From NCBI GenBank assembly GCA_016182565.1, contig JACPGI010000004.1, positions 110,223 through 174,222 on the forward strand: 64,000 nucleotides of DNA, read 5' to 3'. This document shows positions 3,927-48,952 of this stretch, piece by piece; within the stretch, counting starts at the first letter, position 1; every line of letters starts with the position of its first letter. Both the position numbers and the translations under genes were made by a program. The notes under the pieces were generated by a model that did not search any database, was not told the DNA's origin, and saw nothing but the letters and a program-made list of their open reading frames with translations. The stretch comes from a candidate division WWE3 bacterium. Lineage in GTDB: Bacteria > Patescibacteriota > WWE3 > UBA101185 > UBA10185.

Positions 3927-5333
3927 TTACTCTTCCATGAAAGTCAATGCTGTACCTTTTTTATCCGCTCTTCCGGTACGACCAATTCTGTGCACATATT
4001 CATCATATGAGGCTGGAAGTTCATAGTTTATGACATGGCTTACATTATTAATGTCAAGTCCACGTGAAGCAACATCTGTTGCAAGTAAAATCTTTATTTC
4101 ATCATTCCTAAATTTTTGTAAGGTTTGATGTCTTTGACCTTGTCTTTTATCACCATGTATTGCATCGGCTTTAAATCCTCTTTTCACAAGTTCATCGGAG
4201 AGTTTTTGGACTCCCCACTTTGTATTTGCAAAGATTAAAACTTTATCAAACCCGTTTGTGATTAAAAGATCGTGAAGTACATCTATCTTTTTAAGACCTC
4301 CTTGAACTCTTACTATTTCTTGTTTGATATTTTCCCCAGTTTCTTGCTTTTTTACACTTATTGTCACAGGGGCTTGGACAAATGCTTGTAATATCTCTTG
4401 AACCTTATTTGAAACAGTAGCTGAGAAAAATAAGGACTGTCTTTCTTTAGGAAGTTGAGCAATAAATCTTTTGATATCTTGCAAAAAGCCAATGTCTACC
4501 ATACGGTCAGTTTCATCTAGTACTACATTATTAAATGTTCCAAGGTCAATATTTCCCCTTTCGACATGGTCGTTTAGTCTTCCTGGTGTACTTATAATAA
4601 AGTTTGGTCTTCTGTTAAGTCCCAATTTTTGAGCATACATGCTTTTACCACCAATTATTAAAGCTGAATAAATACCCATTCCAGCACTTAAATATCTAAA
4701 TTCAGTTTCTATTTGTTCAGCAAGTTCTCTAGTAGGGGCAATTATTAACACTTTTTGAGTTTTATCTTTGAATACTTTATTTACAAGTGGGATCAAAAAG
4801 GCAGCAGTTTTACCTGTACCTGTATTTGCAATACCAATTAAATCTTCCCCAGCAAGAATTGCTGGAATTGCTTTATCTTGGATAGGTGAAGGAGTTTTAA
4901 ACCCTTTTGTTACAATGTTTCTTTTTAGAATGTCTACAATTGGGAAATCTACGAAATTAAATTCGTTTGTGTAAGCTTCTTCGGATGATACTGGTCTTGG
5001 TCTTTTTGAAAATTCGATTGATTTTATAAGATCTGAGATAGACCATGAAAAGCTACGTCTTCCTCTTGGGGATCTTGAATTAGAGCCATATCCACCTCTA
5101 GATCCGTACCCACTTCGTGAACCATAACTGTTACCGCCACTGTAACCTCCACCGGATCTTCTTGGTGCAAAATTTCTAGGTCCTGTTCCACTTCTTGAGC
5201 TCCCACCCCTTGGACTAAAGCCCCCTGATCTTTGGCCTTGTGAGCTAGATCTATTAAAGGAAGTACCACTTGAGCTAGCCCCATTGGAACTAGAATAACT
5301 TCTATTTTGGGTTGTTTTATAAGCGTTCATCAT
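3927..5333 (-). CDS. DEAD-box ATP-dependent RNA helicase with N-terminal Arg/Gly/Ser-rich disordered extension
   Basis: Q-motif 'TPSPIQ', Walker A 'ANTGTGKT', 'PTRELA', motif II variant 'DETD', 'SAT', 'HRIGRTGR'; ~110-aa N-terminal RGG/SR low-complexity region. Confidence 0.9.
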   Translation of the reverse strand: MMNAYKTTQNRSYSSSNGASSSGTSFNRSSSQGQRSGGFSPRGGSSRSGTGPRNFAPRRSGGGYSGGNSYGSRSGYGSRGGYGSNSRSPRGRRSFSWSISDLIKSIEFSKRPRPVSSEEAYTNEFNFVDFPIVDILKRNIVTKGFKTPSPIQDKAIPAILAGEDLIGIANTGTGKTAAFLIPLVNKVFKDKTQKVLIIAPTRELAEQIETEFRYLSAGMGIYSALIIGGKSMYAQKLGLNRRPNFIISTPGRLNDHVERGNIDLGTFNNVVLDETDRMVDIGFLQDIKRFIAQLPKERQSLFFSATVSNKVQEILQAFVQAPVTISVKKQETGENIKQEIVRVQGGLKKIDVLHDLLITNGFDKVLIFANTKWGVQKLSDELVKRGFKADAIHGDKRQGQRHQTLQKFRNDEIKILLATDVASRGLDINNVSHVINYELPASYDEYVHRIGRTGRADKKGTALTFMEE

Positions 5334-38005: not shown

Positions 38006-38467
38006 TTATAAGTTTGCAATCTTCTTGGTAAACTCAGCTGGATACTTAACTTTAAGTAATTCCGAAGCTTCATTAGGAGTAAACCATGAAAACTCTACAT
38101 GTTCCTCACTTAGCATTATATTGGGGTTTTTCTTAAGTTCGCACAGATATATACCCAGAATTAACCCAATAGTATCAGTTCCTTGGGGTATTCGGATATT
38201 GGATACAACCATATCAAGTTTGGTAAATGATTTAATCTCTGTAATACCTGTTTCCTCTTCAACCTCTCTCTTTAATGTTTCTTCTATGGTACAACCTTTT
38301 TGCACTCTTCCGCCTGGTATATCCCAATAAGCTCCAAGTGAGTGATTCGATAACTTTTCTAAGTTAACCTTAAGTAAAAGTATTTCACCTTTAGAATTTC
38401 TTATTAAAGCTTTTATACCTAAGTGATACGTTTCTTCTTTCATAGTTTTAAAATGCATGAACCTCAA
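38006..38467 (-). CDS. Nudix hydrolase
   Basis: Nudix box 'GGRVQKGCTIEETLKREVEEETGI'. Confidence 0.8.
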   Translation of the reverse strand: MRFMHFKTMKEETYHLGIKALIRNSKGEILLLKVNLEKLSNHSLGAYWDIPGGRVQKGCTIEETLKREVEEETGITEIKSFTKLDMVVSNIRIPQGTDTIGLILGIYLCELKKNPNIMLSEEHVEFSWFTPNEASELLKVKYPAEFTKKIANL

Positions 38468-38996: not shown

Positions 38997-39236
38997 TCTA
39001 ATCTCTGCAAAACCACCTGAACTATACCAGGACTTAATATATTTAAATCTGTATCTCTAACAAAGAAATTCCATGTTCCTCACTTATTGAAGGTTTTGCA
39101 CCTAACTGTTTTAATTGTTCTTCGATAGTAACCACCATACGCTAATAATATCATAGAAACTTCCCCAACACATAAAAGCAAACAACCACAGCGTAAGCTG
39201 TGATAAAATCCAACCAGTGTTGGGGAGTTTCGGATT

Positions 39237-39980
39237 ATGCAAATCGCTGATATAACAATCATAAGCAGGGGTGAACCACCTGAGCTTATAGAACAACCTA
39301 ATAAAAGCACCATTAGCCTACTTTCAATATTGTTAAATAGTAGGTATTTTAATGATTTTGTAACTTCATTTATTGATAAATATGCTATAGAGCAGGAAGA
39401 TATTAAACCTAACCTTAGCAAAGTTATAAATGACCTAGAAAACTGCTCTAAATACCCTGAAATTAGCACTGTAGTAGATGTTTTGGGGTTATCTAGTGAC
39501 TTTGTACCTGATTTTTACTTATTAACCAAATATAGAGCATTTAGAGATATTGGTAACTACTTTTCTATAAACTATAGAAGCACAGTATGGCATTTAAAGA
39601 TTGATTCAGAGGAAGCGATAAAAGAAAAAAGAGAGATAAGTGGGATTATATTCAAAAACAAAGTATCCAAAAGGGAAATGCTTAATTGGGTAAATGAAAA
39701 TTGGGAATGGGTCGAACCAAACATGGCGGAATTACCTGTAAATCCCTTTGTGATTACTGATTTTAAGGACATAGAACTCGCCAGCGAGATATACGACCTA
39801 AATAAACAAGGTATGAAACCTACACAAATACTTAAAGCTTTAAGTACTAAATACCAAGATAATCAGCAAATATACGATAATCTATCGCTTGAACTTGTTA
39901 AAAACAAACTTAAACGCTTTAGAAATCTACTAAACAAAAGAGAACCTTGGTTTCAGAAAACTGAAATTATATACGAATAG
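39237..39980 (+). CDS. module-associated hypothetical protein X1 (paralog of 45481-46272)
   Basis: N-terminus 'MQIADITIISRGEPPELIEQP' vs 'MGIDEIKILKNLNPIELTPEK'; 'REMLNWVNENWEWVEP' vs 'KQMVLDWVGKHWEETIE'. Confidence 0.65.
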   Translation: MQIADITIISRGEPPELIEQPNKSTISLLSILLNSRYFNDFVTSFIDKYAIEQEDIKPNLSKVINDLENCSKYPEISTVVDVLGLSSDFVPDFYLLTKYRAFRDIGNYFSINYRSTVWHLKIDSEEAIKEKREISGIIFKNKVSKREMLNWVNENWEWVEPNMAELPVNPFVITDFKDIELASEIYDLNKQGMKPTQILKALSTKYQDNQQIYDNLSLELVKNKLKRFRNLLNKREPWFQKTEIIYE

Positions 39981-40043
39981 GGCCACTAAAAAATATTTTA
40001 CTGATACCTAAGCTTTACTGTTTTAGCTTTATTCTCCCTCGTA

Positions 40044-40223
40044 ATGAGGGATTTAATCAAACCCACAACTGAAGATATTGAGCAAATAAAAACCTTTTTT
40101 AAAGAAAGATATGGGGTTTTATTAACTGATGAAGAAGCAAAAGAAGCGTTTATCTCACTTTATTACTTAGGAAAAGCGCTATACAGATATAACAACTTAT
40201 CAGAGAGGATTTTAAATGGTTGA
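40044..40223 (+). CDS. conserved small module protein (59 aa; paralog of 46300-46482); not in supplied ORF track
   Basis: hand translation 'MRDLIKPTTEDIEQIKTFFKERYGVLLTDEEAKEAFISLYYLGKALYRY...' aligns with 'IPTKEELQHLKCFLEAKFGVAFTNSEVLESYYSLTHLGKAIYLF'. Confidence 0.6.
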   Translation: MRDLIKPTTEDIEQIKTFFKERYGVLLTDEEAKEAFISLYYLGKALYRYNNLSERILNG

Positions 40224-41316
40224 AATCCCCTCTTTTTTTGACTTATCTACTCCAATTGACCCCACCGACGAGTTGCGGAAGCAACCGTCGGATACTCCCA
40301 AGGAAGTATTTAATCCAGAAGTAAAAAGTACAATTGAGTATAAGGGTTTTGCTAGAGATACTGAAATAGTCGGAAATCCTGCTTTATTATATTTAACTAA
40401 TTATAGAACATTTCAACAGAAGCTTGATAGCAACCTAAAACAATATATTAAGGAAACAAAATTAGAAATGAGGGGTAAATTATTTGAGTTAAGAAACGCA
40501 CCTCCTCACTTTTGTGGTTTATATAAATCTGCGAAACTCAGTGTTTCTGGAAATAAACTTTTACAAGTAATATTCTCAAAAATACCTTGTAATTCTTGGT
40601 GTTGTCCAGTTTGTAGTATAAGAAAAGCAATAAGATTAAAATACAGGTTAAGAGAGATTATTTTACTAAATGATTTAGAGTATTTTATTACCTTTACTCT
40701 AAATCCCTCTAAAATTCCAAGTGTGTATAAGAATGATACGCACAAGTATATTACAAAACTTTTCAACCATTTTTTAACTGTACTACGAAGAAAAAAGTAT
40801 AAATATTTTCATGAAAATAGTGGTAGGTATTTTTACTTTGATTTAACCAAAGCAAAAGATAAGCTTAAATATGTTTGGGTTATTGAGTTTCAAAAGAAAA
40901 CGCATAACGCACATATGCATATTCTAACCAACCAATATTTACCAGCAGTTATATTACGCAAAATATGGCAAGATGTTGGTGGTGGTACTCAAATGCGTTT
41001 GGAAAAGGTCAAATCTAAAAAAGGTATAAGTAACTACATAACTGACTATTTGGTTAAGGGTATAAAAGATACACCTACAAACTTGAAATTGGGTTATGGT
41101 TTCAAGTATTTTGAGCGTAGATATAGTGTTAGTAACTCATGCACTAAACCTGAAAAGAAAATGAAAGAGTTGTTTAAATTACTACCAAACGAGTTAAAAG
41201 AAAAAGAATTAATGAAGCAAAATTTGGGTTGGATTGTAAAAGAGTTATATAATGCGGATAACGATTATTTCAAAGTTGTATTTGATAGTAATTCTCCTGC
41301 ACCACAAAACTTATGA
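40216..41316 (+). CDS. HUH-superfamily rolling-circle replication initiator (Rep), copy 1
   Basis: motif I 'YFITFTL', motif II 'HNAHMHIL' (HUH), motif III 'YITDYLVK' (catalytic Tyr). Confidence 0.75.
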   Translation: MVEIPSFFDLSTPIDPTDELRKQPSDTPKEVFNPEVKSTIEYKGFARDTEIVGNPALLYLTNYRTFQQKLDSNLKQYIKETKLEMRGKLFELRNAPPHFCGLYKSAKLSVSGNKLLQVIFSKIPCNSWCCPVCSIRKAIRLKYRLREIILLNDLEYFITFTLNPSKIPSVYKNDTHKYITKLFNHFLTVLRRKKYKYFHENSGRYFYFDLTKAKDKLKYVWVIEFQKKTHNAHMHILTNQYLPAVILRKIWQDVGGGTQMRLEKVKSKKGISNYITDYLVKGIKDTPTNLKLGYGFKYFERRYSVSNSCTKPEKKMKELFKLLPNELKEKELMKQNLGWIVKELYNADNDYFKVVFDSNSPAPQNL

Positions 41317-42833
41317 ATACTGATTTAAAATATATTATTTATTGTAGAAAATCCTCGGAAGAAGAAAACCGACAAGCACAATCTCTTGATACTCAAAAAA
41401 CTACACTCTTAAAGTATGCACATGATAATAAACTTGATTTTGTTTGTATTTATGAAGAATCTAAAAGTGCTAAAGATGATAATAACCGAATGTTTTTTGA
41501 TGATATGCTTTCTAAACTTAAATCTGGAGAAGCAAATGCAATATTAGTACAGCATTTGGATAGGTTAAGCAGAAATAGAATTGATACAGGTGAATTAATT
41601 AAGTTATTCCAAGAGGGTAAATTAAAAGAGATTAGAACCCCATATAAAGCTAATAATACGATTTATGATTTGTTTAGTATGGATTACGAGTTTATTAACG
41701 CTATTCATTATTCTGCAAGGTTATCAATTCGAGTTAAAGAAGGTATTGATACAAAATTAAGAAAAGGTGAATTTCCTGGTCCTCCTAAACTTGGTTATAT
41801 AACTGTTAATAAAAAACATACTCCTGACCCAGAAAGAACACCTTTTATCAAAGAAATATTTGATTTATATACTGGTAGCAGAGTTTCTATTGAGATTATT
41901 GCTGATACGCTTTTTGATAAAGGTTTTAGAACTCTAAGCGGTAAAAAAGTATATACCTCTGCAATAGCACGAATACTTCAAGATACCTTTTATACAGGTA
42001 AGTTTTTGTATAAAGGAACTGTTTATCAAGGTATTCATAAACCAATAATATCAGAACAGCAGTTTAAACTTGCTAATGAAATAAGGGTAGGTAAAAGCAA
42101 ACCTCGACCTAAAACTGATTTGGATTTTTTGTATAGAGGTTTTTTAAAATGCAATTATTGTGGTTGTGCTTTAACTCCAACTCTTAAAAAGGGTAAATAT
42201 GTATATTACTTCTGTACCAATGGTAAAAACATGTGTGAACAGCACAAAGATTATCTTGGTGAAGGTGATTTAACCCCTAAAGTAACCAGTATTTTCCAAA
42301 ACTTCATAATTGATAAAGATATGGCGACCAAATCCCTTGAGGTTTACAAGAAACAAACCATACAAGCATACGAAGATAAAGTACAGGTTAAAAAGTCACT
42401 AGAAACCCATGTAGAAGCTTTAAACGATAAGTTAGATAAGCTATTAGATACTTACCTAGAAGAAAAAGTAGATAGCAGTACATACAGCAAGAAACAAACA
42501 AAGATAAAACAGGAAATTAAGCAAATTGAAGATAGAATATCAAAACTTAATAAATCACCAAAAACCACTCTGGAACTTTTGGATAAGTTTAAACAGCAAT
42601 GTTTTTCTCTTGGTGAAGTGTATGAACATGGAGATAAAGAGGTTAAGAAAGATTTGTTAAATTCCGCACTCTGGAACTTTTCTATGCTTAATGGAGAAAT
42701 AGCGTCAGTACAATATAAACTACCTTATAAATACATGAATGAAGCTTCTAAAAGTGGTGATTTTTCAATTTGGCTGGGGAACAGGGATTCGAACCCCAAT
42801 ACCTGGGACCAAAACCCAGAGTCCTACCGTTAG
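41313..42833 (+). CDS. large serine recombinase (resolvase catalytic domain + recombinase domain + zinc ribbon + coiled coil), copy 1
   Basis: 'YIIYCRKSS' catalytic Ser region, 'LDRLSRN', Cys cluster 'CNYCGC...YYFCTNGKNMCEQH'; C-terminus reads through antisense of tRNA-Gln. Confidence 0.85.
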   Translation: MNTDLKYIIYCRKSSEEENRQAQSLDTQKTTLLKYAHDNKLDFVCIYEESKSAKDDNNRMFFDDMLSKLKSGEANAILVQHLDRLSRNRIDTGELIKLFQEGKLKEIRTPYKANNTIYDLFSMDYEFINAIHYSARLSIRVKEGIDTKLRKGEFPGPPKLGYITVNKKHTPDPERTPFIKEIFDLYTGSRVSIEIIADTLFDKGFRTLSGKKVYTSAIARILQDTFYTGKFLYKGTVYQGIHKPIISEQQFKLANEIRVGKSKPRPKTDLDFLYRGFLKCNYCGCALTPTLKKGKYVYYFCTNGKNMCEQHKDYLGEGDLTPKVTSIFQNFIIDKDMATKSLEVYKKQTIQAYEDKVQVKKSLETHVEALNDKLDKLLDTYLEEKVDSSTYSKKQTKIKQEIKQIEDRISKLNKSPKTTLELLDKFKQQCFSLGEVYEHGDKEVKKDLLNSALWNFSMLNGEIASVQYKLPYKYMNEASKSGDFSIWLGNRDSNPNTWDQNPESYR

Positions 42834-42844
42834 ACGATTCCCCA
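42771..42844 (-). tRNA. tRNA-Gln (anticodon UUG), CCA encoded
   Basis: hand-folded cloverleaf: acceptor UGGGGAA/UUCCCCA, anticodon loop UUUUGGU, T-loop UUCGAAU, discriminator G; resembles bacterial tRNA-Gln. Confidence 0.8.
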
Positions 42845-44287: not shown

Positions 44288-44722
44288 TTACAAACTCAAA
44301 CGAGAACATACTTCAAGAAATTTACTTTTAATATCCTCAAATGCTAAATGTTTAAGCACTTCCTCTTTTGATAACCACTTCAAATCAACAATTTTTGCTT
44401 GTATTTTTGGGGAAGCAGCTAAATTAAAATTTCCAGCGTAGTAATAGGTTATCCCTTTCTTTCCTGCTCTATCAGGTTTTTCATTACCATAGATAAATTC
44501 ATTAGTAATACCCGTATCCGATAGTTTGTAGTCAGTATTACTTAATCCTAATTCCTCAAAAATTTCTCGTTGCAAACCTGCTTCAATAGTACTATCGTTA
44601 TCTTCTATTCTTCCCCCAACAAAAGTCCAAAATGAATTTTTATGTTGTAACAGCAAATATTCCACCCTTTTATCAGGGTTAATTTTATAGATTATTACAA
44701 CTGCACCTTTTATTAAATCCAT
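44288..44722 (-). CDS. Nudix hydrolase
   Basis: Nudix box 'GGRIEDNDSTIEAGLQREIFEELGL'. Confidence 0.75.
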   Translation of the reverse strand: MDLIKGAVVIIYKINPDKRVEYLLLQHKNSFWTFVGGRIEDNDSTIEAGLQREIFEELGLSNTDYKLSDTGITNEFIYGNEKPDRAGKKGITYYYAGNFNLAASPKIQAKIVDLKWLSKEEVLKHLAFEDIKSKFLEVCSRLSL

Positions 44723-44762: not shown

Positions 44763-45480
44763 GTATCGGTAGTGGTCACCTCCCACCACTTAAATGGAAT
44801 GACGTCCTCCCCGGATAGCACTATGTTTGTCCGGGGTTTCCTTTGCTCCGCTTCTCATGAGAAGTCGTCAGTAACATCGTAACCTAAATCAGAATCATTT
44901 TGCTTACGTATGTATTTGCGTATCTGATCCTCATTGAGCCCTATTGTAGAGACAAAGTACCCCACACTCCACACACCACTATCACCGTACATCTTATCTA
45001 TAAATTTAAACTTAGTTCTAAGGGTGGAACTTGATCTTGATTTCAACTCACGAACTACGTCGGAGATACAATCAGTCGGAGGAAACTCTATTCTCATGTG
45101 TATATGGTCATTGTCTGTATTGAGTTGAAATATGAACCAGGTGGGGTGTGTGCGCAGTGTTTTGTAAAAGCTTTTGACTAGTTCCAAGCGAACATAGGGC
45201 TTTAGTATCTTCCTACCATACTTTGTTCTCCAAACAATGTGATACTGAGTTTGGTATGTGCTATGACTTAGTTGACGAATCCTCATGATGACAGAATAGC
45301 ACTTCGTGCTATTCCCATTCGTCCATGAACTGCGTTCGCAATTCCTCGACCCTTGCTCACTTGTTCATGGTTTGCTGGTATGGATTAGAAAAAGCACACA
45401 CGTAGTGTGTGCTAAAATCCTCCCACTGTGGTGGGAAGTGATTGGATTTCCACCGAAGCATGGGGTACACTCCAACCACT
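44763..45480 (-). mobile_element. IS200/IS605-family insertion sequence (TnpA only, IS200 group), ~0.72 kb; boundaries approximate
   Basis: Y1 HUH transposase gene flanked by GC-rich subterminal palindromes ('agtggtcacctcccaccact', 'cccactgtggtggg'); inserted 3' of a TTAC; GC well above host. Confidence 0.7.
44855..45286 (-). CDS. tnpA: IS200-type Y1 transposase TnpA
   Basis: 'HIVWRTKYGRKIL', HUH 'HIHM', catalytic Tyr region 'GYFVSTIG'. Confidence 0.85.
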   Translation of the reverse strand: MRIRQLSHSTYQTQYHIVWRTKYGRKILKPYVRLELVKSFYKTLRTHPTWFIFQLNTDNDHIHMRIEFPPTDCISDVVRELKSRSSSTLRTKFKFIDKMYGDSGVWSVGYFVSTIGLNEDQIRKYIRKQNDSDLGYDVTDDFS

Positions 45481-46272
45481 ATGGGGATAGATGAAATAAA
45501 AATTCTTAAAAACTTAAATCCTATTGAACTAACACCTGAAAAAGAAATATCAGAACAAACTTGGATTGCACTAGGTAAGGTTCTTAACGATGATAGAACA
45601 TATGTTTTTATTGAAGATTTTAGAAAATCCTATGGTTTACCTAAAAATGGTTTGGATATAACAAAATTTGTTGGTAAAAACTTCAAAGAATTAGGTTTAG
45701 ATAACTATTTAGGAATGGGTTTATCCGTTATTTCCGCTACTCTTTCAGAACGAACAGGATTAGGTAATGCTTTTAACGACCAATTGTTACTACTCCTGTA
45801 TTTTAATGCTTTCTTAGATTGTAACCATTACAATAAATTACCTAGTTTTGAAATTAATTTTGTTGCAGGTAAAGAACAAATATCAAATGCTTGTTGGAAA
45901 TATCCTCATGAAATAGGTGCTATTTTAATACCTGTTTTTGCTAACAAACAAATGGTGCTTGATTGGGTTGGAAAACATTGGGAAGAAACCATTGAAAAAC
46001 AACTGGATAGCAAAATCTACGATAATCCTTTTGCGGAAACTACTCTTCAGTGGAGTAAAATAGCAACCGAAATAATTTACTACAGAGATAAGGAAAAGAA
46101 ACAATTTAAAGAAATATCTACAATACTTTTTGATAAATATGGCAAAGAATATGCTGTTGTTGCTGATGAAGATTGGGCTCGTGCTATATATCACCAATAT
46201 AAAGAACATTTAAAGTTGTGGGAACAATCAAAGCGAAAGCAAAAATCAGCGAAAACTCTTACTCAAAAATAA
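45481..46272 (+). CDS. module-associated hypothetical protein X2 (paralog of 39237-39980); track start 45442 is a TTG inside the IS end
   Basis: homology of N-terminus beginning at ATG 45481 with X1. Confidence 0.6.
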   Translation: MGIDEIKILKNLNPIELTPEKEISEQTWIALGKVLNDDRTYVFIEDFRKSYGLPKNGLDITKFVGKNFKELGLDNYLGMGLSVISATLSERTGLGNAFNDQLLLLLYFNAFLDCNHYNKLPSFEINFVAGKEQISNACWKYPHEIGAILIPVFANKQMVLDWVGKHWEETIEKQLDSKIYDNPFAETTLQWSKIATEIIYYRDKEKKQFKEISTILFDKYGKEYAVVADEDWARAIYHQYKEHLKLWEQSKRKQKSAKTLTQK

Positions 46273-46299
46273 CCTCCTAAAATCTACGATTTCCAGTAA

Positions 46300-46482
46300 A
46301 TGCTGGAAATCAAAATACCCACAAAAGAAGAATTACAACATTTAAAGTGCTTTTTAGAAGCAAAATTCGGTGTTGCTTTCACCAATAGTGAAGTTTTGGA
46401 AAGTTATTACTCCCTAACACACCTTGGTAAAGCAATATATCTGTTTTGTAAACAACAGGAGGTTAAAAATGAAACCTCTTGA
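46300..46482 (+). CDS. conserved small module protein (60 aa), copy 2
   Basis: paralog of 40044-40223. Confidence 0.6.
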   Translation: MLEIKIPTKEELQHLKCFLEAKFGVAFTNSEVLESYYSLTHLGKAIYLFCKQQEVKNETS

Positions 46483-47422
46483 AACACAAGAAGAAATTGT
46501 TAAATATTTTGGTTCACCACTTGAAGAACCTGAACTTCACACCGAGTTATATTACAAACCAAAAATATCCCAAACTGATATTTTAATAAAAGAAATCCTC
46601 GCCAACAAGCATAGCGACGAAAGTCGCATGCTTTCCCCCTTTACTCTACTAGATAGTACCGTCGTAATTCCTCCAGTTATTGATAAGTTTAAAATTGCTT
46701 ATTACCAAACAACAACGGAATATGGGAATTATGTTGATATTTATATTCATGAAAAACCCATAATTAAAGCAAAAAACCTAAAATCCCGAAATGTACGAGG
46801 AGGTAGGTACAAGGAAAATGAGGAAAAACCAGATAGGGGTAACGAATATCGCAGAAGAAACTCAATCAAAGCATTAAACATGATAAAACAACTAACACTT
46901 CAAAATTTCACTAAAGAAAATGTGAAACTGCTAACCCTTACTTTTGGAGATTGTGCTTTTGATATCAATAATCCAAGGATTTGTGACCCCTTATTTAGTA
47001 TTTTTATGTGTAAATTACGAAAGTTATTTCCTGATTTAAAGTATCTAGGTGTTTTAGAGTTCCAAAAACGAGGTGCTGTTCATTACCATGTTTTGTGTGA
47101 TTTACCCTATATCAAAAAAGAAGAAATAGCAGAACTTTGGGGATATGGTTTTATTGATATTAGAAAACCTGATTATGTTATTGGAACTTACTTGTATAAA
47201 TATCTATCAAAGGATTTAAACGACGAAAAATTAAAAGGTGTTAGGGTATATTTTCACTCTAAAAACCTTGAAAAACCCGTTAATAAAACTGGAGTACCTG
47301 CATTTGATGTAATTTCCAGATTTCAAAATTCAGAAATACACTTTACTAACCAGTATACAAATAAATATAATGGGGGTACTGTAAAATACTTACAGTTTAA
47401 AGTTTCTCCTACCCAAACATAA
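46469..47422 (+). CDS. HUH-superfamily rolling-circle replication initiator (Rep), copy 2
   Basis: motif I 'LLTLTFGD', motif II 'VHYHVLCD', motif III 'YLYKYLSKD'; ATG 46469 preceded by 'aggagg' SD (track gives upstream start 46424). Confidence 0.75.
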   Translation: MKPLETQEEIVKYFGSPLEEPELHTELYYKPKISQTDILIKEILANKHSDESRMLSPFTLLDSTVVIPPVIDKFKIAYYQTTTEYGNYVDIYIHEKPIIKAKNLKSRNVRGGRYKENEEKPDRGNEYRRRNSIKALNMIKQLTLQNFTKENVKLLTLTFGDCAFDINNPRICDPLFSIFMCKLRKLFPDLKYLGVLEFQKRGAVHYHVLCDLPYIKKEEIAELWGYGFIDIRKPDYVIGTYLYKYLSKDLNDEKLKGVRVYFHSKNLEKPVNKTGVPAFDVISRFQNSEIHFTNQYTNKYNGGTVKYLQFKVSPTQT

Positions 47423-47429
47423 AAGATAT

Positions 47430-48890
47430 ATGAATAATTGCTTTATTTATTGCAGAAAATCTACAGATTGTGCTGATAAACAAGAACAATCCCTTGAAAC
47501 CCAAGAGAGAATTTGCTTGGAAACTGCAAAGCGATTTAATCTTAGTGTTGTTGATACCATTCTTGAAGCAAAATCTGCTAAAGATGCTGGAAACCGACCC
47601 AAATTTGATAACTTAATTTATCGCATTCGTAATAAAGAAGCAGATATTATTATTACTTGGGATATTGATAGATTAGCAAGAAACTTAACAGAAGCAGGTT
47701 TATTACAACAACTTTATGAAACTGGATTAATAACAAAAATAATCACTGAACATGATATTTATGCTTCTGATAGGGATTTTATGAATATTGGTCATGAGTT
47801 TGTTGATGCTTCTAATTATTCCCGAAAACTTCGTTCTAAAGTTAAAGATGGTACTGATACCAAACTTAAAAGAGGTGAAATTCCGGGTTCTTCAAAAATT
47901 GGTTACTACATAGTTGATAAGAAAATGAAACCCGACCCAGATAGAGCACCTTTTGTAAAACTTGCTTTTGAAATGTATACAGACGGTAAACACTTAAGAG
48001 AAATAACCAAAACCTTATATGAAATGGGTTTTAGAACCAAAAAGGGTTACAAGGTTTATCTAAACACTATAAACAAAATGCTAAAGCGAATTGATTACAC
48101 TGGTACATTTGAGTACAACAAACAACTATATCAAGGAAGTTACGAACCACTTGTTTCAATGGAATTATTTGACAAGGTTCAAAAACTGATTGTTAAAAAC
48201 AACATTCCAAAATCCCAGAAACACTACTTTCTTTACCGAGGTTTTATTAAATGTGGGCATTGTGGTTGCATGCACACTGCTACAACTAAAAAAGGAAAAT
48301 ATATTTATTACTACTGCACTAATTCCAAAAGAATTTGTAAACAGCACCAAAAATATATTGAGGAACAGGATATGCATGATTTATATAGCAATAAACTTTC
48401 AGAACTCCCAATAGATACCGAGATACTAAATCAATCTTACGAGTTATATGCTAAAAATTACCTACAGCAGTATAAAGAGGTGGAAAATCAGAAAACCATT
48501 GTTAAAAAGCAACTGGTGAGTGTAGAAACCAGTATAAACAGGTTAGTTGATATTTATATTAGGGGAGAAATACAACAGGAGGTTTATTCTCGAAAATACA
48601 AGCAACTGGTTTTAGAAAAAGAAACCCTCCAAAACACACTTATCAAACTGGAAACTCAAAAACCTGAAGAAACCTTGGAACTTATTAAAAAATTCAAAGA
48701 TTATTGTTGTACCTTGCAAAACACCTACTCCAAGGGAAACAATGGGGTGAAAGAAGAAATCTTAAAAGCAGTGTGTTGGAACTTTTCAATCAATAATGGA
48801 AAAATCGCTTCAATACAATACAAAAAACCATTTGATATGATTGCAAAACTACCTAAAAATGCTGATTTTGTTCAATGGTGGGCGGTATAG
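47430..48890 (+). CDS. large serine recombinase, copy 2
   Basis: 'FIYCRKST', 'IDRLARN', zinc ribbon 'CGHCGC...YYYCTNSKRICKQH'; terminal 'QWWAV*' codons overlap antisense of tRNA-Val CCA. Confidence 0.85.
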   Translation: MNNCFIYCRKSTDCADKQEQSLETQERICLETAKRFNLSVVDTILEAKSAKDAGNRPKFDNLIYRIRNKEADIIITWDIDRLARNLTEAGLLQQLYETGLITKIITEHDIYASDRDFMNIGHEFVDASNYSRKLRSKVKDGTDTKLKRGEIPGSSKIGYYIVDKKMKPDPDRAPFVKLAFEMYTDGKHLREITKTLYEMGFRTKKGYKVYLNTINKMLKRIDYTGTFEYNKQLYQGSYEPLVSMELFDKVQKLIVKNNIPKSQKHYFLYRGFIKCGHCGCMHTATTKKGKYIYYYCTNSKRICKQHQKYIEEQDMHDLYSNKLSELPIDTEILNQSYELYAKNYLQQYKEVENQKTIVKKQLVSVETSINRLVDIYIRGEIQQEVYSRKYKQLVLEKETLQNTLIKLETQKPEETLELIKKFKDYCCTLQNTYSKGNNGVKEEILKAVCWNFSINNGKIASIQYKKPFDMIAKLPKNADFVQWWAV

Positions 48891-48952
48891 GGATCGAACC
48901 TATGACCTTTCGGATGTAAACCGAATGCTCTAACCAGCTGAGCTAACCGCCC
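48876..48952 (-). tRNA. tRNA-Val (anticodon UAC), CCA encoded
   Basis: acceptor GGGCGGU/ACCGCCC, D-arm GCUCAGCUGGUUAGAGC, anticodon loop UUUACAU, T-arm AUAGGUUCGAUCCCUAU. Confidence 0.85.

What the first reader, a model, noticed from the sequence alone, without database searches (positions are those of the whole stretch)
40044..40223. Unannotated conserved 59-aa ORF present in both modules
Hand translation of 40044-40223 gives a 59-aa protein. It aligns along its length with the 60-aa ORF 46300-46482 (shared pattern ...ED/EL..IK.F...FGV..T..E..E.....L.HLGKA.Y). It is below the ORF-track size cut-off yet conserved between diverged copies, so it is likely a real gene, perhaps a recombination directionality factor or Rep accessory protein. 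Both copies overlap the downstream Rep start.
Basis: seen in the sequence. Interest (0 to 1): 0.5.

Follow-up and report, generated by a model that had tools for sequence, protein, structure and literature searches.

The report
Small conserved gene gating Rep translation
The two short reading frames are a real, conserved gene for a two-helix protein of an unnamed family, placed so that its translation probably unlocks synthesis of the replication protein in two tiny elements integrated next to tRNA genes; what the protein itself does is unknown.

Summary
Observation confirmed. ORFs 40044-40223 (59 aa) and 46300-46482 (60 aa) are 35% identical (E 2e-13). Both overlap the downstream Rep start, by 8 and 14 nt. 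Close relatives differ mainly at third codon positions (dN/dS 0.04-0.17). A profile finds 64 clusters of 43-83 aa proteins, mostly in candidate-phyla-radiation bacteria, all unnamed and matching no Pfam, NCBIfam, PHROG, PADLOC or PDB entry.

AlphaFold2 gives a confident helix-loop-long-helix. Fold matches are weak: histone-like geometry only, no HTH, RHH or Xis fold.

The gene is cistron 2 of a recurring ~3.5 kb cassette: ORF-A, small ORF, HUH Rep, large serine recombinase. The recombinase gene's 3' end runs into an antisense tRNA gene.

New finding: the small-ORF and Rep start codons both sit in stable hairpins, whereas the recombinase and ORF-A starts do not. The Rep hairpin pairs Rep's Shine-Dalgarno with the small ORF's last codons. 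Rep translation should therefore depend on small-ORF translation, as in R1 tap-repA and SGI1 S004-repA.

It is not a mere leader peptide, because the protein is under purifying selection and also occurs without Rep. An RDF role is plausible but untested.

The parts
40044..40223 (+). Small ORF, module 1 (59 aa, 'type A'); predicted helix 9-23, loop, helix 29-58
   Evidence: AF2 pLDDT 88.9; dN/dS 0.04-0.13.
46300..46482 (+). Small ORF, module 2 (60 aa, 'type B')
   Evidence: 35% identity to module 1; dN/dS 0.11-0.17. P0001 is identical.
40035..40051 (+). Hairpin 1, module 1: TCCCTC-GTAAT-GAGGGA. The A and U of the small-ORF start codon lie in the loop and the G is paired.
   Evidence: 91% of cells paired versus 34-51% when slid. 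One compensatory C-G to G-C change (L034) comes with an R2S substitution.
46288..46311 (+). Hairpin 1, module 2: GATTTCCAG-TAAATG-CTGGAAATC, a perfect 9-bp inverted repeat around the small-ORF start codon
   Evidence: -13.9 kcal/mol, z -7.5; 98% paired, with a U-A to C-G change and U-G intermediates.
40202..40233 (+). Hairpin 2, module 1. The 5' arm contains Rep's Shine-Dalgarno GAGAGGA. The loop holds Rep ATG 40216. The 3' arm contains the small-ORF stop codon TGA 40221-40223.
   Evidence: -12.9 to -15.1 kcal/mol, z -3.3. Covariation within type A is not significant.
46456..46481 (+). Hairpin 2, module 2. CAGGAGGTT (Rep's Shine-Dalgarno) pairs with AACCTCTTG, which is Rep codons 2-5 and also the last codons plus stop of the small ORF. 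Rep ATG 46469 lies in the loop.
   Evidence: z -5.6; 98% paired versus 38-58% when slid, with U-A to C-G in L009 and L010. Synonymous differences (pS) fall to 0.22 in codons 49-60 from 0.52 in the core.
40216..41316 (+). HUH rolling-circle Rep, module 1 (366 aa)
   Evidence: PF23343 REP_ORF2-G2P, E 2.4e-8; phrog_3419.
46469..47422 (+). HUH rolling-circle Rep, module 2 (317 aa counted from ATG 46469)
   Evidence: PF23343, E 5.8e-16. Searches support the start site.
41313..42833 (+). Large serine recombinase, module 1. Its 3' end overlaps the antisense tRNA-Gln gene.
   Evidence: Resolvase, Recombinase and Zn_ribbon_recom domains..
47430..48890 (+). Large serine recombinase, module 2. Its 3' end overlaps the antisense tRNA-Val gene.
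   Evidence: 37% identical to the module 1 recombinase.
39237..39980 (+). ORF-A, module 1 (247 aa, unknown function), first gene of the cassette
   Evidence: the AF2 model is poor (pLDDT 44.5).
45481..46272 (+). ORF-A, module 2. The likely start is ATG 45481; the mechanical ORF starts at TTG 45442.
   Evidence: 26% identical to the module 1 ORF-A..
42771..42844 (-). tRNA-Gln(ttg) at the right end of module 1
   Evidence: Relatives L029 and L034 use the same target.
48876..48952 (-). tRNA-Val(tac) at the right end of module 2

Best explanation
Shown:
- The two ORFs are copies of a genuine protein-coding gene for a ~60-aa protein made of one short and one long helix.
- The family has no name and is found mainly in candidate-phyla-radiation bacteria (WWE3 and relatives).
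- The gene is the second cistron of a compact integrative cassette: ORF-A, small ORF, HUH rolling-circle Rep, large serine recombinase. The cassette lies beside a tRNA gene.

Inferred from sequence:
- The small ORF is the gating upstream cistron for Rep. Rep's Shine-Dalgarno and start codon are locked in a hairpin whose 3' arm is the last codons and stop codon of the small ORF.
- Rep can therefore be made efficiently only when a ribosome reads the small ORF to its end.
- The small ORF's own start codon sits in a second hairpin and has no Shine-Dalgarno. The pair would therefore be kept at a low or conditional level, while the recombinase has an unstructured start of its own.

Inferred more weakly:
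- The protein is not a throw-away leader peptide. It is probably a subunit that binds a partner or pairs with itself, because the C-terminal half of helix 2 carries conserved hydrophobic and small residues (Y40, Y41, L42, G43, A45, L46, Y47) that helix 1 is too short to cover.
- My leading guess for the partner is the serine recombinase. The protein would then act as a directionality factor made together with Rep, so that excision and replication switch on together. I put that specific step at about 0.3.
For: Real gene:
- dN/dS is 0.04-0.17 in close relatives, and 0.11-0.14 for codons 6-48 alone.
- 24 close homologues and 64 distant clusters, 43-83 aa long.
- AF2 model with pLDDT 88.9.

Cassette:
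- The same gene order, ending at an antisense tRNA gene, recurs at different chromosomal sites. Targets are tRNA-Val, Ala, Ser, Gln and Ile, in L001-L011, L013, L014, L023, L034, L036 and L040. L018 and L020 share the order but their contigs end first.

Coupling:
- Overlaps of 4-20 nt.
- 50-nt windows around Rep starts fold with mean z -3.3 in 9 loci. Recombinase starts give z 0.05 and ORF-A starts z -0.04.
- The Shine-Dalgarno lies in the 5' arm and the small-ORF stop codon in or at the 3' arm.
- Type-B hairpin 2 is 98% paired, with a U-A to C-G change.
- Synonymous differences are suppressed in the overlap (pS 0.22 versus 0.52).

Hairpin 1:
- Mean z is -3.5 over 13 loci.
- 7 of 15 lineages have a perfect inverted repeat of at least 6 bp over the start codon, against 4 of 61 control starts (p 6e-4). 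At 7 bp or more the counts are 6/15 versus 0/61 (p 2e-5).
- Compensatory changes are seen in both subfamilies.

Precedent:
- In SGI1, S004 overlaps repA within a stem-loop, and translation of S004 in cis is essential for RepA (PMC7826253).

Not a leader peptide:
- The family is also found without Rep, next to a recombinase (L019 and L029).
- It is also found in unrelated operons (L012, L015, L044).
Against: - No expression or ribosome data exist. The coupling is inferred from sequence only.
- Covariation support rests on few distinct sequences (4-5 per subfamily). Shuffle controls are only moderately exceeded (21-76 of 500).
- For hairpin 2 of type A there is no significant covariation.
- The hairpins are weak or absent in some lineages (L040, L044, L012, L013, L015).
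- Hairpin 1 could be a palindromic DNA operator rather than an RNA structure.
- Three lineages have neither Rep nor recombinase nearby. A single partner-specific function therefore does not explain the whole family.
- The Rep-less relative L029 shows relaxed constraint (dN/dS 0.26-0.52, conserved G24 lost). That fits dependence on Rep as well as it fits general decay.
Confidence: 0.6

Rival explanations
1. Recombination directionality factor. The protein binds the large serine recombinase near the zinc-ribbon domain and coiled coil, and switches it from integration to excision. This is a more specific version of the main explanation, not exclusive of the coupling.
For: - Serine integrases need an RDF to excise. 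RDFs have no common fold or synteny, and some use helices only (10.1101/2024.06.11.598349).
- In the loci examined, the small ORF is the only gene other than Rep and the recombinase that every recombinase cassette carries. ORF-A is absent from L013/L027, L018 and L019.
- Small ORF plus recombinase without Rep occurs in L019 and L029.
- The recombinase start is unstructured while the small-ORF and Rep starts are hairpin-gated. This fits a constitutive integrase with a conditional RDF.
- The isoelectric point varies from 4.2 to 10 across the family, which fits a partner-specific interface better than general nucleic-acid binding.
Against: - Three lineages have no recombinase within 5-10 kb: L012, L015 and the + strand locus of L044.
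- There is no direct interaction evidence.
- Co-transcription with the integrase is not by itself evidence.
- L029 shows relaxed constraint although its recombinase is intact.
Confidence: 0.3
2. Cop-like autoregulator. The protein dimerises and binds the palindrome or hairpin at its own start, as dsDNA operator or as mRNA. This represses its own synthesis and therefore Rep synthesis, which would be feedback copy-number control.
For: - It sits directly upstream of and overlapping rep, as in cop-rep operons such as pMV158 copG-repB and pRN1 orf56-orf904 (my own knowledge).
- Perfect palindromes with 6-9 bp arms lie at the start codon in 7 of 15 lineages. These include loci without Rep (L019) or with unknown downstream genes (L021). 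Each lineage has a different sequence.
- The protein sits ahead of unrelated downstream genes (KAP NTPase, MuF-like protein), as a generic regulator would.
Against: - No HTH or RHH: the model has only two helices and no N-terminal strand, and short members have no room for one.
- hhalign against CopG gives probability 0.4%.
- No DNA-binding family hit in four libraries.
- Charge is not conserved.
- All four one-sided stem changes are G-U on the sense strand. This favours an RNA helix, which needs no protein to act.
Confidence: 0.25
3. Rep accessory subunit. The protein is made in a fixed ratio with Rep through the coupling, and binds Rep or the origin to help or limit initiation.
For: - Overlap and coupling with Rep occur in at least 9 lineages.
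- Constraint is relaxed in the Rep-deleted relative L029.
- A distantly related 48-aa ORF precedes a different HUH Rep (Phage_CRI) in L044. hhalign gives E 9e-5 and probability 59%.
Against: - The gene is kept intact without Rep in L019 and L029.
- It occurs with neither Rep nor recombinase in three lineages.
- The Rep proteins of the two window modules barely align (33% over 80 aa), while the small proteins are 35% identical along their length.
Confidence: 0.15
4. Pure leader peptide, or a chance ORF whose conservation comes only from nucleic-acid constraints such as the hairpins, the Rep overlap or an origin.
For: - Hairpins cover codons 1-4 and the last ~10 codons.
- Synonymous differences are suppressed in the type-B overlap region.
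- Classical tap, repY and S004 leaders work only through being translated (PMC7826253).
Against: - Codons 6-48, outside all known nucleic-acid features, have pS 0.52-0.54 and dN/dS 0.11-0.14.
- The family is recognisable at protein level across 64 clusters with saturated DNA divergence.
- The structure model is confident.
- The gene also occurs where there is no Rep to lead into.
Confidence: 0.03

Closest known systems
SGI1 S004-repA leader cistron (Salmonella genomic island 1; PMC7826253)
   Same: - It is an integrative element with its own Rep.
- The upstream ORF's last codons overlap the rep start.
- The overlap lies inside an inverted repeat that can form an mRNA stem-loop over the rep start site.
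- Translation of the upstream ORF in cis is needed for Rep.
   Different: - S004 is treated as a leader whose product is not needed in trans. Here the product is a conserved structured protein under purifying selection, and it also occurs without Rep.
- The Rep here is an HUH rolling-circle enzyme, not an IncN2-type RepA.
- Here a second hairpin also sits on the upstream ORF's own start.
- Nothing has been tested experimentally here.
R1/IncFII tap-repA and IncB/IncI repY-repZ leader-peptide coupling (my own knowledge; cited within PMC7826253, refs 38 and 57)
   Same: Rep synthesis is made dependent on translation of a short upstream ORF. That ORF's own initiation is the regulated step.
   Different: - Those leaders are 24-30 aa long and are not conserved as proteins.
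- Their control is by antisense RNA (CopA, RNAI). No antisense RNA or promoter was identified here.
Cop repressors encoded upstream of rep: pMV158 CopG and pRN1 ORF56 (my own knowledge)
   Same: A small protein (~45-56 aa) encoded directly upstream of, and co-expressed with, the replication gene of a small replicon.
   Different: - Those are ribbon-helix-helix dimers that bind a promoter operator.
- This protein has no predicted strand, a 30-residue second helix, and no profile similarity to CopG.
Small RDFs of large serine integrases and the pSAM2 repSA-xis-int operon (10.1101/2024.06.11.598349 for RDFs; pSAM2 from my own knowledge)
   Same: - A small accessory protein is encoded in an element that uses a large serine recombinase.
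- In pSAM2, replication, excision-factor and integrase genes are expressed as one unit, so excision and replication go together.
   Different: - No interaction or activity data exist here.
- pSAM2 uses a tyrosine integrase and a Xis of a different fold, and its gene order differs.
- Known RDFs share no fold, so no homology test is possible.
Histone fold (alpha1-L1-alpha2 part)
   Different: - The third helix is absent.
- Foldseek finds nothing with E below 2.
- hhalign against HMfB gives probability 0.1%.
- This is a geometric resemblance of a two-helix unit, not membership.

Membership tests
Leader-cistron translational coupling to rep (tap-repA, repY-repZ, S004-repA) | The upstream ORF ends within or just after the rep start codon | tested here: met
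   8-nt overlap (ATGGTTGA) in module 1 and 14 nt in module 2. Overlaps are 4-20 nt in relatives.
Leader-cistron translational coupling to rep (tap-repA, repY-repZ, S004-repA) | A stem-loop sequesters the rep Shine-Dalgarno and/or start and lies inside the translated upstream ORF | tested here: met
   Nine of 9 Rep-start windows fold across the start, mean z -3.3, against about 0 for recombinase and ORF-A starts. Arm contents are shown. Type B is 98% paired with a compensatory change. Type A covariation is not significant.
Leader-cistron translational coupling to rep (tap-repA, repY-repZ, S004-repA) | Translation of the upstream ORF is required in cis for Rep synthesis | not testable with these tools
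   This needs reporter fusions with an early stop codon in the small ORF.
Leader-cistron translational coupling to rep (tap-repA, repY-repZ, S004-repA) | The peptide product itself is dispensable (a leader in the strict sense) | tested here: not met
   dN/dS is 0.11-0.14 in codons 6-48. The family has 64 clusters. It also occurs without Rep.
Recombination directionality factor of a large serine recombinase | Encoded in the same mobile element as the recombinase | tested here: inconclusive
   True for 10 of 13 lineages whose context is known. Not true for L012, L015 and the + strand locus of L044.
Recombination directionality factor of a large serine recombinase | Binds the recombinase at the junction of DBD2 and the coiled coil | not testable with these tools
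   Only single-chain prediction was available. The accepted computational test is an AF2-multimer pulldown.
Recombination directionality factor of a large serine recombinase | Activates attL x attR recombination and inhibits attP x attB | not testable with these tools
   This is an experiment.
Ribbon-helix-helix Cop repressors (CopG, ORF56) | N-terminal beta-strand followed by two helices, forming a dimer | tested here: not met
   AF2 gives no strand, only helices 9-23 and 29-58. Members such as P0046 and P0043 have 3-6 residues before helix 1. hhalign against CopG gives probability 0.4%. There is no Pfam RHH hit among 66 members.
Ribbon-helix-helix Cop repressors (CopG, ORF56) | Gene immediately upstream of rep and co-oriented with it | tested here: met
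Xis/excisionase or other HTH DNA-binding proteins | Helix-turn-helix or winged-helix fold, or a matching profile | tested here: not met
   There is no consistent or significant Pfam, NCBIfam or PHROG HTH/Xis hit. The model has two helices and no third helix or wing.
Histone fold | Three helices (alpha1-L1-alpha2-L2-alpha3) with significant structural or profile similarity | tested here: not met

The most novel reading that the evidence does not exclude
The two-helix protein is the directionality factor of the cassette's serine recombinase.

Two start-codon hairpins would then form a minimal switch. The recombinase is always made. The factor and Rep are made together only when the first hairpin opens, so excision and rolling-circle replication fire as one event in a ~3.5 kb element.

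That would define a new RDF family with many natural variants paired to recombinases that target different tRNA genes.
Probability: 0.3. Interest if true: 0.6.

Novelty: new variant of a known kind. Interest (0 to 1): 0.42.

Why it matters
The gene belongs to an unnamed small-protein family. Automatic annotation either misses it or labels it hypothetical.

It sits at the control point of very small integrative replicons in candidate-phyla-radiation bacteria, whose mobile elements are poorly known.

If the coupling model holds, these cassettes are about the smallest self-contained units that can integrate, excise and replicate. They would also extend leader-cistron control of Rep to rolling-circle elements that use serine recombinases.

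If the protein proves to be the recombinase's directionality factor, it would supply many compact integrase-RDF pairs with distinct tRNA targets. Such pairs are sought as genome-engineering parts.

Tried and rejected
Family and sequence searches with no usable hit:
- Pfam, PHROG, NCBIfam and PADLOC scans of the two ORFs, and Pfam and NCBIfam scans of 66 family members, gave no consistent hit.
- A profile search of PDB sequences returned only a short annexin-repeat motif match (E 0.015, no domain passing). I reject it as spurious.

Structure searches:
- Foldseek against PDB and BFVD found nothing significant.
- The afdb50 library was not available.
- hhalign against HMfB and CopG was negative.

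Scans that failed or added little:
- Metagenome scans with the broad alignments A4 and A5 failed for lack of a conserved stretch.
- The scan with A3 gave only 7 loci. IMG/VR gave one, L029.

Attachment sites:
- A search for direct repeats or a tRNA remnant at the left ends found nothing for module 1. Module 2 gave one weak candidate at 45361-45385.
- This is expected for serine recombinases, so the element's left boundaries remain undefined.

Other tests:
- The sigma-70 promoter scan found fewer sites than the shuffled controls. It found no antisense promoter in the small ORF.
- Rfam matched nothing except the tRNAs.
- I considered hairpin 1 as the Rep nick site. I rejected this because the loop sequence is not conserved across lineages and the hairpin persists where Rep is absent (L019, L029).
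- The ORF-A structure prediction was too poor to search with (pLDDT 44.5). Its homologue search returned only unnamed proteins.

Full report
**1. The observation**

40044-40223 encodes 59 aa and 46300-46482 encodes 60 aa. BLASTP aligns them without gaps over 54 residues at 35% identity and 63% similarity, E 2e-13.

They occupy the same position in two co-oriented four-gene modules:
- Module 1: ORF-A 39237-39980, small ORF, Rep 40216-41316, large serine recombinase 41313-42833.
- Module 2: ORF-A 45481-46272, small ORF, Rep 46469-47422, recombinase 47430-48890.

Pfam identifies the Reps as PF23343 (REP_ORF2-G2P, an HUH rolling-circle type). The recombinases carry Resolvase, Recombinase and Zn_ribbon_recom domains. 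ORF-A and the small ORFs match nothing.

The modules are old duplicates or independent arrivals. ORF-A is 26% identical between them, the recombinases 37%, and the Reps align only over 80 residues. Each recombinase gene runs at its 3' end into an antisense tRNA gene, tRNA-Gln and tRNA-Val.

**2. Is it a gene?**

The two window copies are saturated at synonymous sites, so I used closer relatives.

A profile of the pair found 24 proteins of 59-61 aa in two subfamilies. All are unnamed or 'hypothetical', and one is from a WWE3 bacterium.

With their DNA in hand:
- Module 1 versus L007 shows 12 differences, 10 at third codon positions, dN/dS 0.04.
- Module 2 versus four relatives gives dN/dS 0.11-0.17.
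- Restricting to codons 6-48, which lie outside the Rep overlap and the hairpins described below, gives dN/dS 0.11-0.14 with pS ~0.53.

A full HMMER pass over 1.84 billion representative proteins found 64 clusters at E <= 1e-3. Nearly all are 43-83 aa long and share the core pattern I-K-x-F...L-T-D-x-E-x-L-E...S-L-Y-Y-L-G-K-A-I. A second indexed search with the broad profile again returned only unnamed proteins without Pfam domains.

This is a real protein-coding gene.

**3. The protein**

AlphaFold2 on the 26-sequence alignment gives pLDDT 88.9: helix 9-23, a five-residue loop, then helix 29-58.

Fold and profile comparisons:
- Foldseek finds nothing significant in PDB or BFVD.
- Profile comparison with an archaeal histone and with CopG is negative.
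- There is no strand for a ribbon-helix-helix and no third helix for an HTH.
- NCBIfam and PADLOC also give nothing.

The isoelectric point ranges from 4.2 to 10 across the family, which does not suggest a conserved nucleic-acid-binding surface.

The C-terminal half of helix 2 carries the most conserved residues, many of them hydrophobic or small. Helix 1 is too short to bury them. I infer self-association or a protein partner. This is an inference, not a test.

**4. Context elsewhere**

The same order (ORF-A, small ORF, Rep, recombinase, antisense tRNA) recurs in many contigs at unrelated chromosomal sites. The tRNA targets seen are Val, Ala, Ser, Gln and Ile. These are therefore ~3.5 kb integrative elements, not host genes.

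ORF-A is not universal. It is absent from L013/L027 and L019, and a DUF4238 protein replaces it in L018.

Two relatives keep the small ORF and the recombinase but have no Rep:
- L019, where the recombinase ORF reads into a flavodoxin gene.
- L029, a close relative of module 1 at the same tRNA-Gln target, with Rep reduced to a ~20-codon stub. Its small ORF is intact but less constrained (dN/dS 0.26-0.52).

Three more distant members lie in other settings:
- L012: beside an HpaII restriction-modification pair and ahead of a KAP/QatA-like NTPase.
- L015: ahead of a protein with a weak Mu-F-like match.
- L044: in an unannotated gene row.

L044 also holds a second cassette with a Phage_CRI-type Rep. 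It is preceded by a 48-aa ORF that resembles the family weakly (hhalign E 9e-5, probability 59%).

**5. Two hairpins**

Looking for operators, I found a perfect inverted repeat straddling the small ORF's start codon in most lineages. Its sequence is different in each:
- Module 1: TCCCTC-GTAAT-GAGGGA.
- Module 2: GATTTCCAG-TAAATG-CTGGAAATC.
- L001: TCTCCAG/CTGGAGA.
- L020: TCTGCCT/AGGCAGA.
- L017, L018, L019 and L021 have others.

Within subfamilies the stem is kept by compensatory changes. In type A, L034 changed C-G to G-C together with an R2S substitution. In type B, U-A becomes C-G, with a U-G intermediate in L008. Cells are 91-98% paired against 18-56% for slid controls, and all four one-sided changes are G-U on the sense strand.

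Seven of 15 independent lineages have at least 6 perfect pairs over the start codon, against 4 of 61 other gene starts in the window (p 6e-4). At 7 pairs or more the counts are 6/15 versus 0/61 (p 2e-5).

As a control I folded the other gene starts of the cassette. Recombinase and ORF-A starts are unstructured (mean z 0.05 and -0.04). Rep starts are as structured as small-ORF starts (mean z -3.3 and -3.5).

In the Rep hairpin, the 5' arm is Rep's Shine-Dalgarno: CAGGAGGTT in module 2 and GAGAGGA in module 1. The 3' arm is Rep codons 2-5, which are also the last codons and the stop of the small ORF. In type B this stem is 98% paired with one compensated pair, and synonymous differences in that stretch drop to 0.22. 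In type A the exact register is not conserved and covariation is not significant.

**6. Mechanism**

The arrangement matches a known design: a rep ribosome-binding site locked in a stem-loop that only a ribosome finishing the upstream ORF can open. The closest documented case is SGI1. There S004 overlaps repA inside an inverted repeat, and an early stop codon in S004 abolishes RepA and cannot be rescued in trans (PMC7826253). R1 tap-repA and IncB repY-repZ are cited in that paper.

I therefore propose that the small ORF gates Rep synthesis, and that its own hairpinned, Shine-Dalgarno-less start sets how often this happens. The recombinase, with a free start, would be made independently.

Shown: the overlaps, the hairpins, their specificity to these two starts, and part of the covariation.
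Inferred: that the structures act in mRNA and that coupling occurs.

**7. What the protein does**

It is not a strict leader peptide, for two reasons: the selection on its sequence, and its occurrence without Rep. Three readings remain.

- Recombinase cofactor (RDF), about 0.3. Serine integrases need one to excise, and RDFs have no common fold or position (10.1101/2024.06.11.598349). This is also the only gene other than Rep and the recombinase that every recombinase cassette examined carries.
- Cop-like autoregulator acting at hairpin 1 or the palindrome, about 0.25. This fits the varied downstream genes but not the fold or the variable charge.
- Rep accessory subunit, about 0.15.

None could be tested here, because only single-chain structure prediction was available.

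**8. Comparison and novelty**

The expression logic is a known kind. Three things are new:
- the protein family, which has no name, no domain and no solved relative;
- its use as a conserved, structured first cistron rather than a disposable leader;
- the setting: minimal rolling-circle elements in candidate-phyla-radiation bacteria that integrate next to tRNA genes using a serine recombinase.

I found no description of such elements in the paper library. Inoviruses with rolling-circle Reps and serine recombinases are reported from these phyla (PMC6813254). However, these cassettes show no match to any morphogenesis or other virion family.

I rate this a new variant of a known kind, of moderate interest. 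Interest would be higher if the RDF reading is confirmed.

Noticed in passing
window 45385-45480; also L008 ~4075-4185, L023, L036, L009: A conserved, structured non-coding block of ~110 nt lies upstream of ORF-A in type-B elements. Its inner hairpin AGCACACAC-GYA-GTGTGTGCT (window 45393-45413) shows three compensated pairs in relatives. In relatives a long-range repeat CTTCCCACCAC...GTGGTGGGAAG encloses it, but its 5' arm is missing or degenerate in the window copy. It could be an origin (sso or dso) or a structured leader. There is no Rfam match.
   Followed up: partly
window 41313-42844 and 47430-48952; L001, L009-L011, L013, L014, L023, L029, L034, L036, L040: In every complete cassette the serine recombinase ORF ends inside an antisense tRNA gene (Gln, Val, Ala, Ser or Ile). 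The overlap is 63 nt of tRNA-Gln in module 1 and 15 nt of tRNA-Val in module 2. The attachment site therefore seems to lie in the recombinase gene's own 3' end, and the protein's C-terminus would change on excision.
   Followed up: partly
L019 1827-3875: A related recombinase ORF (682 aa) continues in frame into a flavodoxin domain (residues 539-673). This suggests integration into a flavodoxin gene rather than a tRNA gene. Only the small ORF lies upstream, with no Rep and no ORF-A.
   Followed up: partly
window 44855-45286 (- strand): An IS200-like Y1 transposase gene (PF01797, E 3.7e-27) lies directly left of module 2. It may account for the damaged left end of that module.
   Followed up: partly
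L044 1-2975 (- strand): A second cassette has the same layout but a different Rep family: a 277-aa ORF, a 48-aa ORF, a Phage_CRI Rep (PF05144) and a serine recombinase. The 48-aa ORF resembles the small-protein family weakly (hhalign E 9e-5). The layout is therefore modular with respect to the Rep type.
   Followed up: partly
L029 (IMGVR_UViG_GVMAG-M-3300007516-29_000001) and L007 (CAZTUN010000147.1): Close relatives of module 1 are filed in public collections under a giant-virus MAG bin and an 'uncultured Rickettsiales' MAG. Other cassettes come from WWE3, Shapirobacteria and Woesebacteria MAGs, so these two are probably binning errors on short contigs.
   Followed up: no
window 38006-38467 and 44288-44722 (- strand): NUDIX hydrolase genes lie to the left of both modules. 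L036 also has a NUDIX gene beyond the right end of its cassette. This may be coincidence or a preferred neighbourhood.
   Followed up: no
window 39185-39223 (- strand features) and 39160-39225: The left flank of module 1 contains GC-rich inverted repeats, CCCCAACAC...GTGTTGGGG and ACCACAGCGTAAGCTGTGAT. The scan scored them as terminator-like on the minus strand. They could be the terminator of the neighbouring gene or part of the element's left attachment site or origin.
   Followed up: no
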